Positions 10,705 to 18,174 of a stretch of 63,133 bases of DNA are shown here, piece after piece. The number at the start of each line of letters is the position of its first letter. The first letter of the stretch is position 1. The notes under the pieces are model-generated. The model saw only the letters and a list, made by a program, of their open reading frames with translations. It searched no databases and was not told where the DNA came from. Location: NCBI RefSeq assembly GCF_000372725.1, contig NW_005201259.1, positions 31,942-95,074 of the forward strand. The letters run 5' to 3'. The DNA comes from Emiliania huxleyi CCMP1516 (taxonomy: Eukaryota). The position numbers and the translations under genes were made by a program.

Positions 10705-10970
10705 TCCGCCGATAACGATTGGGGTGGGGGCCCCAACTCGTGAAAGGCCACTAGTTTCTCGAAGCCACTCACACGAGGACTCACCTCCATGACACTTCCA
10801 TCTTCTCCCCGGACCTCGCAGCTCGCTGCGTGTGGTTTTATTTATCATGGACGCTATGGCGTCTAGGACGCGCCTGTCTTTCACCGCCTCGTTTAGCGAG
10901 CGCTCTGCATGGCAGCGTGCTCCTCTTTTGCTGACCGCCAGAGCGGCGGCAGCACAGATTTCTTTTCTCC
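10705..10970 (+). repeat. Split direct repeat A1 (266 bp)
   Basis: tccgccgataacg...gatttcttttctcc, repeated at 13167-13432. Ends immediately before the YR ATG at 10971. Confidence 0.95.
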
Positions 10971-12896
10971 ATGACCGTGTGGCCGATCGGCCACGAGCCG
11001 CCTCGGGCGGTCAGGCTTCAGCCAGCGGCGCCTCCTGGTGGCGCCTCCGGTCGGCCACGCTTGCCGCCGCAGTTCGGCTTGGCTACAGCTCCAAGCGTGG
11101 CTACGCGCAGGTCGGCCCCTTTGACGGGACGGGCACCGCCTCTCGCCAGGCCATCCCGAGAGCGCCTGGTCCCGGCCGGCGCACTTCCGATGCGCGCCGC
11201 GTTGAGGCCGCCGGGCATCGGATGCCGCACGCCTACGCCCGCCCTTGTTCCGGGGGTGGGCGCGAGGCTCGCGCCCTCGGGCCCCGTCCCTGCGCCATCG
11301 AGGGCTAGCGTGGCTGCCTCCGCTCTTCCCCCAGCGGAGCTGACGGCGCGCGGCCGTCCTTTCGGGGCCGCTGGCCTGGGGCCTGCGCCCTCCGCGCAGC
11401 CCTCCATTTCGTGCCGTCAACGAACATCTTCTGCCGTCGGCCCGTCGGGCGACTCCCAACGCGGGAAGAGGCGGCGAGCGTCAGCCGAGGAGCGCGAGGC
11501 GATGTCCTCGCACGCCGACGTCCAGGCGTACCAGCTGGATCGAGCCGCGAGATGGCTGGCCGCCCAGCTGCCTCCGTCCTCTGTTTTCGACCTCCTCGGG
11601 GGCGAGCAAGGCCTCGCCCAAGTCCCCGACGACTCCGAGAGGATGGAGGCCCTCGTCGCCACCGTCAAGCTCAAGGGTGGGGCGGACGGCGCTGTCCTCG
11701 GCAACGCCAGGCGCTCGCTCGAGCGGCTGAGGGAGTTCGCCCTCGAGCGCGGCCTCCCGGATGGAGGACTCCCCGCTTCGCCTGTCCTCCTTAACCGCTT
11801 TCTGATTTGGGTCGACGCGAAGGCGCGCTCGGCGAACAGGGGATCGCAGGGCGGGGCGACAGTACGTGACGGGGTGCGCTCCGGGCTTTTGTTCCTAGCT
11901 CGCCACCTTGGGCTTCCCATTTCCATCGGGTCCGTGGTGGCGGAGGCCGCAGCGCCGCCGGGGAGGAAGTTGCGGCGCGAGCGCCGCTCGGGCTCTCTTC
12001 CTATCAAGGTCTACTGCCACTTCGAGGAGTTGGCCGCGTCTCCTGTCGACACGCCCGCTCGCTTCTTCGCCCGGTCGATCGTACTGGGGCTGTTCTCGAG
12101 TCTTCGAATGGTGGACATCCTCCGGGCGTGCATCGGTCCCCTCGAGGACCTGCAGTGCGTCATGCTCGTTACTTCCTTCTCCAAGGACGGCGCGCCGATC
12201 GACGTGTACCTTCCGGCGGAAGGCTTCCTTGGCGCGTGGGCATGGTGGCCCGAGCACCGAGCCGCCCTCCTGGGCCGGCCATACTTGCTGCCCGCCTTCG
12301 CGGCGCCGCGCGGCTACGCGGGAGACGTCCGCTACGCCTCCGACTTCCTCGTGGACGGCCGCGTCGCCCCCAAGGCGCACGCAGTCCGCTCGCTCTACGT
12401 GCTCTCGTCCGAGCCGCCGCTGCGCATGGGCCAAGAGCGGTGGTCGGAGCTCGGCTGCACGCCCCACTCGTCTCACGGCTCTCCAGCCGACATGGGGGCC
12501 GTCGTCTCTCACCACGCGCCGCCCGACATCGCCTTCACGCCTCAGGACGAAAACGAGATCTGCCATTGGCGTCGCCGCGCCCACGCCAATAGCGGCGACG
12601 GCGAGCTGACGCTCGAGGGCGCTATCGCGCATCTCGCTCCGCGGCGGCGCGGCCATGCGGGCGCTGCGCCGAGCGTCGCGGCCCCTCCGGCCGTCGCTGC
12701 TGACGACCAGAGCATGCGTGTTCGGTACACGGCGGGCGCCAACCGCGAGGGCCGCCGCCGGGCGCAGCTTCGTGTGCGGCGTCGGTGGATTCTAGCCGTT
12801 CGCCGTGGTCTGGCGCGTTTCGGGCGGCCGTGGACCGATCTTCCTGGCGACCGCTCCGACTACGACATTCTCGTCGATCTTCCGGCGGCGCCGTAG
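10971..12896 (+). CDS. Tyrosine recombinase (YR) of the retroelement
   Basis: 641-aa ORF. Core-binding-like helices (LERLREFALERG...LLNRFLIW), then SLRMVD (R), FSKDG (K), HSSHG (HxxR position), CHW and MRVRY (Tyr), in the order seen in YRs. Confidence 0.78.
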   Translation: MTVWPIGHEPPRAVRLQPAAPPGGASGRPRLPPQFGLATAPSVATRRSAPLTGRAPPLARPSRERLVPAGALPMRAALRPPGIGCRTPTPALVPGVGARLAPSGPVPAPSRASVAASALPPAELTARGRPFGAAGLGPAPSAQPSISCRQRTSSAVGPSGDSQRGKRRRASAEEREAMSSHADVQAYQLDRAARWLAAQLPPSSVFDLLGGEQGLAQVPDDSERMEALVATVKLKGGADGAVLGNARRSLERLREFALERGLPDGGLPASPVLLNRFLIWVDAKARSANRGSQGGATVRDGVRSGLLFLARHLGLPISIGSVVAEAAAPPGRKLRRERRSGSLPIKVYCHFEELAASPVDTPARFFARSIVLGLFSSLRMVDILRACIGPLEDLQCVMLVTSFSKDGAPIDVYLPAEGFLGAWAWWPEHRAALLGRPYLLPAFAAPRGYAGDVRYASDFLVDGRVAPKAHAVRSLYVLSSEPPLRMGQERWSELGCTPHSSHGSPADMGAVVSHHAPPDIAFTPQDENEICHWRRRAHANSGDGELTLEGAIAHLAPRRRGHAGAAPSVAAPPAVAADDQSMRVRYTAGANREGRRRAQLRVRRRWILAVRRGLARFGRPWTDLPGDRSDYDILVDLPAAP

Positions 12897-13031
12897 CGCG
12901 CGGGCCTCGTCCCTCTCTCTCGTCGGGTCTCGTCCCGCGTCCCTGATGGGCTGTCGCGCACATCCGTCCCTCTCTTTCGTCTTCATTGGGTGTCGAGTCC
13001 CCTCTGCTCTCGCTCCTCCACTCTCTGCTTT

Positions 13032-17850: not shown

Positions 17851-18038
17851 CGCTATTCACAGCGCTGTGTCGAAGGGGTGAGCGGGCGTGTACGCCGGCC
17901 CCTCTCTTTAGTCTGGGTCTGAGGCGCGAACCCTTTCGGCGACGCGGCCGGCCACAGGACGTCGAGGATTCCTCCGGACCTGTGGTTCGTCCAAGCTGAT
18001 TGAGTCCCAACCCTCCGCCTTTAGTGGCAGGACCCCAG

Positions 18039-18174
18039 GGGATGTTAGCGTGCTCTCGTACCGTGAGTACTCTCCATGTGTGGAGTCACGAGTCTCGTAC
18101 GCATGACGGACCCTTTTACCATTCCAATGTATCCTCACTCGGATACTAGGATGTGTGAAGCGAGATAAACTAGT
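18039..18174 (+). repeat. Split direct repeat B2 (136 bp), right end of the element
   Basis: Copy of 13032-13167. Confidence 0.95.

What the first reader, a model, noticed from the sequence alone, without database searches (positions are those of the whole stretch)
10705..18174. Two-module tyrosine-recombinase retroelement: A-[YR]-B joined head-to-tail to A-[gag/RT]-B
Seen in sequence: two 266-bp A repeats and two 136-bp B repeats with no differences found by eye, in the order A1-YR-B1-A2-(DUF4326, gag-like, RT-RH)-B2. Established knowledge: PAT/Ngaro-type YR retroelements have split direct repeats, but normally all ORFs sit between A1 and B1, with B1-A2-B2 clustered at the 3' end and YR downstream of RT. 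Here the B-A junction is central and splits the element into a 2.46-kb recombinase unit and a 5.0-kb replication unit with the same A...B ends. Inference: each unit may be separately transcribed, circularised or integrated, making a segmented retroelement. One unit may also have integrated into the junction of the other. Matching repeats and open ORFs point to recent activity.
Basis: partly seen in the sequence, partly recalled or inferred. Interest (0 to 1): 0.92.

Follow-up and report, generated by a model that had tools for sequence, protein, structure and literature searches.

The report
Two-cassette recombinase retrotransposon with hairpin junction
This is an intact 7.5-kb jumping gene whose recombinase gene and reverse-transcriptase gene sit in two cassettes with the same ends, a layout shared by distant relatives in plankton DNA and close to known PAT/Kangaroo elements; it likely copies itself as one unit through a predicted hairpin joint, although related reverse-transcriptase cassettes also occur alone.

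Summary
Observation confirmed: A (266 nt) and B (136 nt) are 100% identical pairs, in the order A1-YR-B1-A2-DUF4326(-)/gag(-)/RT-RH(+)-B2. YR and RT folds match Cre/XerH and LTR-type RTs. The layout is inherited: two other families (46% RT identity) show it between host flanks, and YR and RT trees agree, so this is neither a misassembly nor a chance nesting. What differs here: recombinase cassette first, gag head-to-head with RT, no methyltransferase, HxxH catalytic motif, and a virus-type DUF4326 in frame behind the gag stop (likely readthrough). New detail: the B|A junction forms a covarying hairpin (13154-13223), exactly the piece that high-copy short derivatives keep. Segmented replication is not shown; depths of the two cassettes are near 1:1. 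But a related family has two precisely ended, recombinase-free RT cassettes at different sites. Verdict: new variant of a known kind; separately mobile cassettes about 20%.

The parts
10705..10970 (+). Repeat A1 (left end; first base is the shared T of the crossover)
   Evidence: 266 nt identical to A2
10971..12896 (+). Tyrosine recombinase ORF, 641 aa; R-K-HxxH-(H)W-Y
   Evidence: model matches XerH (4.5e-4) and Cre; motifs; 9 of 9 tested differences in other runs are synonymous
13032..13167 (+). Repeat B1
   Evidence: 136 nt identical to B2
13154..13223 (.). B|A junction hairpin, predicted recombination site; crossover T at 13167
   Evidence: z -4.5 and -5.7; covariation; same limits as the piece shared by high-copy short derivatives
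13167..13432 (+). Repeat A2
13433..13441 (+). CCCACCC tract right after A, RT cassette only (G-rich on the gag strand); possible priming tract (inferred)
   Evidence: 9 of 9 elements on the RT side, 0 of 9 on the YR side
13491..13872 (-). DUF4326 frame, 127 codons, in frame behind the gag stop after splicing
   Evidence: Pfam 7e-16; frame
13873..13941 (-). 69-nt GC..AG intron
   Evidence: skipped in one contig of RNA run X10; ends computed
13944..15245 (-). gag-like ORF, 433 aa, CCCH-type zinc finger near the C-terminus
   Evidence: 'gag' is inferred from position and finger, no Pfam match
15246..15546 (.). Spacer between the head-to-head gag and RT genes; likely two-way promoter
   Evidence: RNA-type contigs stop at 15272/15286 and start at 15497/15505; weak hint only
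15547..17850 (+). Reverse transcriptase-RNase H ORF, 767 aa, no methyltransferase domain
   Evidence: model pLDDT 89.9 matches CaMV, MLV, Ty3 RT at E 6e-10 to 7e-9; 8 of 10 tested differences synonymous
17916..18045 (+). Segment before B2 that is also carried by abundant short derivatives; likely replication signal
   Evidence: joints and loose ends in X1-X3, X6, X10
18039..18174 (+). Repeat B2 (right end, ends on the shared T)

Best explanation
This is one intact split-direct-repeat tyrosine-recombinase retrotransposon, laid out as A-recombinase-B-A-gag/RT-B, that likely replicates as a single unit, with its two cassettes only sometimes parted. Shown: repeats, genes, folds, a conserved layout, a spliced gag-strand RNA, co-descent of YR and RT. 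Inferred steps: (1) separate mRNAs come from A (YR) and from a two-way promoter between gag and RT; DUF4326 is likely made by readthrough of the gag stop. (2) A full-length RNA from A1 to B2 is copied to single-stranded cDNA, as shown for DIRS-1 (PMC7192593); the internal B|A junction would serve as template to restore both ends, as the ICR does in DIRS-1. (3) The end of B pairs with an inverted copy 30-45 nt inside A; this predicted hairpin, or the same inverted pair in double-stranded DNA, is the site the recombinase uses, crossing over at a T with 1-2 shared bases and no target duplication. (4) Because the joined intermediate has two equal B|A junctions, integration at either would permute the cassettes, and recombination between them, or later A-by-A deletion in the chromosome, would leave solo cassettes.
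For: Same order between host flanks on both sides in L001/L003 (A 210, B 128 nt) and L011 (A 187, B 109 nt). YR found in 14 of 80 RT loci, 10 of 45 families, always on the RT strand. YR and RT distances correlate over 11 elements (Mantel rho 0.82, 0 of 5000 permutations). Contig depths of YR and RT: X1 29.8/27, X4 8.6/8.4, X2 48/34 (not a copy number). The CCCACCC tract and the segment before B2 lie only in the RT cassette, so the YR cassette lacks candidate replication signals. Hairpin: best of 213 70-nt windows (the exact window was added by me; the neighbouring grid window ranks 4th); 8 of 15 pairs change on both sides in 5 families, 0-1 of 500 shuffles, slid controls 27-44% paired against 85%; short derivatives diverge at 13154/13160 and 13223. 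The ICR is essential in DIRS-1 (PMC7192593, passages).
Against: Two recombinase-free RT cassettes with exact ends sit at two different sites in the L046/L054 family; L016/L025 and L055 may be further cases. All 3 insertions with both flanks are YR-first; the RT-first order (L020, L039, L041) is seen only in contigs that pass through collapsed or near-collapsed repeats. No full-length RNA, cDNA or circle was observed. Hairpin support is uneven: z -1.4 in L011, 0.2 in L071, and the best fold of L075 is another structure; junction positions in L041, L068, L071, L075 were picked by eye, and the counted structure came from the same 5 sequences. An inverted pair of protein-binding sites would covary too. 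66 of 80 loci hold no YR, mostly because contigs end near the cassette ends.
Confidence: 0.7

Rival explanations
1. Bipartite element: the YR cassette and the gag/RT cassette are each transcribed, copied and integrated as separate units through the shared hairpin site, and often land next to each other because each offers the other a B or A half-site.
For: The L046/L047 and L052/L053/L054 loci hold a 5,166-nt gag-RT-RH-DUF4326 unit without YR or internal junction, with the same two bases (TC) at both ends, at two sites; left and right flanks belong to the same host repeat in each case; joins recur in separate assemblies; the two ends, joined in silico, fold into the same kind of stem. Both cassettes of the window have complete A...B ends. 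RT-first and YR-first contigs occur in families 75-83% alike.
Against: Both solo copies are decayed (1 and 4 internal stops) and are equally explained by A-by-A or B-by-B deletion after insertion. Near 1:1 depth and congruent trees. The internal junction is kept in all 10 families where a YR was seen next to the RT. No solo YR cassette seen (the one metagenome scan was made with the RT, so it could not show one).
Confidence: 0.2
2. A recent accident: an independent recombinase element inserted into the end of an RT element (or two elements in tandem with deletions).
For: Either cassette has ends that could be a target for the other (sequence).
Against: Layout conserved in families whose repeats share almost no sequence; YR and RT co-descend.
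Confidence: 0.05
3. Misassembly that collapsed repeats and joined unrelated pieces.
For: 100% identical repeats; no single contig of another run spans the element.
Against: No N in the element; contigs of other runs cross YR-B-A and A-DUF; same layout in other assemblies of other families.
Confidence: 0.03

Closest known systems
Kangaroo (Volvox carteri), PAT group of the DIRS order, as described in PMC4157794
   Same: [quoted passage not shown] Read on the gag strand, the window is repeat-[RT reversed]-gag-junction-[YR reversed]-repeat, so YR is inverted relative to gag beyond the junction, as in Kangaroo.
   Different: RT is head-to-head with gag and on the YR strand; no MT domain; gag has a CCCH finger (absent in Kangaroo per that paper); DUF4326 present. 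The original paper was not held.
Nematode-form Pat1 (Panagrellus, Caenorhabditis briggsae, Pristionchus), PMC4157794
   Same: Internal repeats between RT/MT and a same-strand YR; zinc finger in Gag. Relative L075 (YR+, junction, gag+, RT+) is the permuted form of this layout.
   Different: Cassette order reversed (YR first in 3 of 3 flanked insertions), gag inverted in the window's branch, no MT (loss of MT is reported there for a C. briggsae lineage). Original PAT paper not held.
Ngaro (e.g. Cafeteria, PMC8547959) and VIPER/TATE (PMC6681497)
   Same: Split direct repeats, no MT; YR upstream of RT as in VIPER/TATE; solo AB remnants and short non-autonomous derivatives (SIRE) are known.
   Different: There all ORFs lie between A1 and B1 with B1-A2-B2 at the 3' end, and the Cafeteria YR keeps His-X-X-Arg.
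Dictyostelium DIRS-1 (PMC7192593)
   Same: RT-RH plus YR, internal copy of the circle junction, single-stranded cDNA (assumed here).
   Different: Inverted terminal repeats and ICR instead of split direct repeats.
Integron attC and CTX phage attP (recalled, no call)
   Same: Tyrosine recombinases acting on a folded single strand with bulged bases.
   Different: Only an analogy; no activity on a folded strand is shown here.

Membership tests
Tyrosine-recombinase retrotransposons (DIRS order) | RT-RNase H of LTR type | tested here: met
Tyrosine-recombinase retrotransposons (DIRS order) | Tyrosine recombinase instead of a DDE integrase | tested here: met
   fold matches XerH, Cre, lambda Int; invariant R, K, H, W, Y; HxxR is HxxH in 9 of 11 elements
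Tyrosine-recombinase retrotransposons (DIRS order) | No target duplication; a short shared core at both ends and at the junction | tested here: met
   shared T in the window, TT in L003, TA in L011, TC in L046/L054; empty sites not seen
Tyrosine-recombinase retrotransposons (DIRS order) | Gag-like ORF | tested here: inconclusive
   conserved ORF next to RT with a CCCH-type finger in 19 of 45 families; no Gag family match
PAT group (Pat1, Toc3, Kangaroo) | Split direct repeats A1-B1-A2-B2 | tested here: met
PAT group (Pat1, Toc3, Kangaroo) | Internal repeats between the RT region and YR (Kangaroo, nematode Pat1) | tested here: met
PAT group (Pat1, Toc3, Kangaroo) | Methyltransferase (MT) domain after RNase H | tested here: not met
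   ORF ends about 50 residues after the last RNase H motif; no MT match in 37 of 37 aligned proteins
PAT group (Pat1, Toc3, Kangaroo) | RT groups with PAT references in a tree | not testable with these tools
   no named reference sequences were returned by any search
Kangaroo | YR inverted relative to RT; no zinc finger in Gag | tested here: not met
   YR is on the RT strand in 14 of 14 loci; finger present
Ngaro / VIPER | No MT domain | tested here: met
Ngaro / VIPER | All ORFs between A1 and B1, internal repeats downstream of all genes | tested here: not met
Ngaro / VIPER | RT groups with Ngaro or VIPER references | not testable with these tools
   no named references on hand
DIRS1-like | Inverted terminal repeats with ICR | tested here: not met
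   only direct repeats

The most novel reading that the evidence does not exclude
A bipartite retrotransposon: recombinase and gag/RT cassettes travel as separate cDNAs or sub-circles and are integrated through a folded single-stranded hairpin site, in the manner of integron cassettes, with a Gag-DUF4326 readthrough protein taken from DNA viruses that counters ADP-ribose-based host defence.
Probability: 0.2. Interest if true: 0.85.

Novelty: new variant of a known kind. Interest (0 to 1): 0.55.

Why it matters
How split-direct-repeat retrotransposons restore their ends and what their recombinase recognises is untested. This clade offers a sharply delimited 70-nt candidate site (covarying hairpin, kept by short derivatives), an intact and transcribed element, and natural solo cassettes, so the questions of single-stranded versus double-stranded integration and of one unit versus two become directly testable. 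It also exposes a large clade that Pfam misses (533 recombinase clusters at 50% identity) and a virus-type accessory domain that has moved between Gag and Pol.

Tried and rejected
No whole genome is held, so solo and permuted copies could not be counted in the host. Viral contigs (YR and RT) and prokaryote genomes (YR) gave no relatives. Rfam gave nothing near threshold in the element or 6 relatives, so no known ribozyme. PDB sequence search with the RT alignment gave nothing. The protein atlas did not complete. The rest of the long metagenome records could not be searched. Cluster look-up gave only 'hypothetical protein'. The GAG column and the gag lengths used a wrong start and are void; replace them. 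L016 and L025 look like solo RT cassettes but share a 3' flank while differing in the 5' flank, so at least one is joined wrongly through A: not counted. A blind search for end stems in L055 found only A/T runs and did not single out the true stem in the L046 control: uninformative. Loop-like contigs (L018, L022, L027) arise in any assembly graph with shared A and B and were not taken as circles. The YR tree timed out and was redone by FastTree; the 38-row RT tree is a quick tree, one row per chosen locus, 43 loci left out as near-duplicates, fragments or broken frames. Gaps in RNA cover and runs with shares near zero are no evidence. No complex was predicted.

Full report
Observation. The two repeat pairs are exact and at the stated places: A 10705-10970 and 13167-13432, B 13032-13167 and 18039-18174, with one T shared at the junction. 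Between A1 and B1 lies a 641-aa ORF that Pfam does not recognise but whose model (37-row alignment, pLDDT 82.6) matches XerH and Cre. Between A2 and B2 lie DUF4326 and a gag-like ORF on the minus strand and a 767-aa ORF on the plus strand whose model matches CaMV, MLV and Ty3 reverse transcriptases. Differences seen in other runs are synonymous in 9 of 9 tested YR sites, 8 of 10 RT sites and 4 of 8 gag sites (only part of the listed differences was tested). Contigs of three runs of the same coded organism and of plankton metagenomes cover all genes. In two RNA runs on record, pieces of YR, gag and RT are present, and one contig skips a 69-nt GC..AG intron on the gag strand, which shows real RNA for that strand.

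The layout is inherited. A metagenome scan with the RT alignment kept the best 80 of 105 loci; they fall into 45 families at 90% DNA identity. A YR lies beside the RT in 14 of 80 loci, 10 of 45 families: YR first in 7 families, RT first in 3, always on the RT strand. Two families show the window's full order between host flanks (L001/L003; L011, whose A1 carries a 203-nt insert and whose YR is frameshifted). YR and RT distances agree across 11 elements (rho 0.82). A gag finger was detected in 19 of 45 families: head-to-head with RT in 14, on the RT strand in 5. The YR family is large: 533 clusters at 50% identity. The host lineage was not established; marine plankton runs and a GC..AG intron fit a haptophyte (recalled, not tested).

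Junction. In all families with flanks B ends on a T that also begins A, with one or two shared bases and no duplication. A carries an inverted copy of the end of B 30-45 nt in, so a long imperfect hairpin can form only across B|A: z -4.5 for the window against -1.5 for flank plus A1; -2.8 against -0.2 for L003; weaker in L011 and absent in L071. Over 5 families 8 of 15 pairs change on both sides (structure derived from the same rows). Independent support: abundant other sequences in the host runs share just this piece, leaving the window's sequence at 13154 or 13160 and at 13223; depth in that bin is 2128 against 34-48 in the genes of run X2. They also share 17916-18045. These are most simply short non-autonomous derivatives. 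A CCCACCC tract follows A on the RT side in 9 of 9 elements and on the YR side in 0 of 9; the solo unit L046 lacks it near its left end.

DUF4326. After splicing it is in frame directly behind the gag stop (433 + 127 codons). In 6 of 7 related families with the same gene pair it follows the stop in frame without an intron; the L010 family is off by one base. In 5 other families it is fused to the RT ORF. Readthrough is the likely route (inferred). PMC9503650 (one passage) describes DUF4326 as a rhodanese-phosphatase clade of phages and giant viruses proposed to act on ADP-ribose phosphates; 9 papers hold the term, all titled on viruses (listing only).

One unit or two. For one unit: near-equal depth of YR and RT in X1, X2 and X4 (the tool warns this is no copy number), congruent trees, a kept junction, candidate replication signals only in the RT cassette, and the need for an internal junction copy in DIRS-1 (PMC7192593, passages). 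For two: the L046/L054 family holds a 5,166-nt gag-RT-DUF4326 unit without YR, even with a broad profile read through stops, with exact ends at two sites, matching host repeats on both sides, and ends that fold into the same kind of stem when joined in silico (-20.5 kcal/mol, no shuffle control). Both copies are decayed, and deletion between like repeats gives the same structure. The RT scan could not reveal solo YR cassettes. I put one unit with secondary parting at 0.7 and separately mobile cassettes at 0.2.

Comparison with print. PMC4157794 (passages and section 6) states that Kangaroo and nematode-form Pat1 have the internal repeats between MT and YR, so a central junction is known. PMC8547959, PMC6681497, PMC5890265 and PMC8969392 (passages) give A1-ORFs-B1-A2-B2 as the common form, note other configurations, solo AB remnants and shuffled YR/Pol order. 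PMC3266345 (passages) lists one unclassified element in Emiliania. PMC12477816 and bioRxiv 2026.05.21.726589 (passages) add nothing on this layout; the Ectocarpus supplement with family notes was not read and may bear on it. Ten searches showed no description of the YR-first, head-to-head layout, of a junction hairpin, or of DUF4326 in such elements; most hits were seen as listings only. The Kangaroo and PAT papers were not held, the Goodwin and Poulter reviews were not read, and Repbase could not be searched, so prior cataloguing is not excluded. The element works like a PAT/Kangaroo element but fails the MT test for PAT and the repeat-position test for Ngaro; it is filed as a new variant within the DIRS order.

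Noticed in passing
L037:395-1957 (+): Extra 521-codon ORF inside a related RT cassette with motifs that look by eye like a C5-cytosine methyltransferase; no Pfam match at E 0.05. Would parallel the DNMT-bearing Symbiodinium elements of PMC5890265.
   Followed up: partly
window 18246-19200 and 10334-10650: Both flanks are very abundant host repeats (summed contig depth up to 300,000 and 7,800 in X2); L046, L052-L054 and L011 also sit in or beside repeat arrays, hinting at a target preference.
   Followed up: no
window 22417-23409 and 25768-26787 (-): Two actin-like ORFs (recognised by eye) account for the direct repeats at 22.1-22.8 and 25.5-26.3 kb; the inverted repeats at 19344-19564 and 31247-31472 enclose them, and no transposase-like ORF was recognised there.
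   Followed up: partly
window 13154-13223 and 17916-18045, runs X1-X3, X6, X10, X11: High-copy short derivatives, present in RNA runs (depth 142 in X10), with their own junctions; not reconstructed.
   Followed up: partly
L054:3704-4543: A 0.84-kb insert in the solo RT unit that begins with a CCCACCC tract and holds an ORF start; may be the end of another element of this group.
   Followed up: no
window YR, residues HSSHG at about 12463-12477: The His-x-x-Arg motif is His-x-x-His in 9 of 11 elements and in 44 of 82 aligned representative rows (4 keep Arg, 34 unclear); invariant arginines follow the catalytic tyrosine.
   Followed up: partly
L011:4765-4967: 203-nt insertion inside A1 of a related element, possibly a small mobile element.
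   Followed up: no
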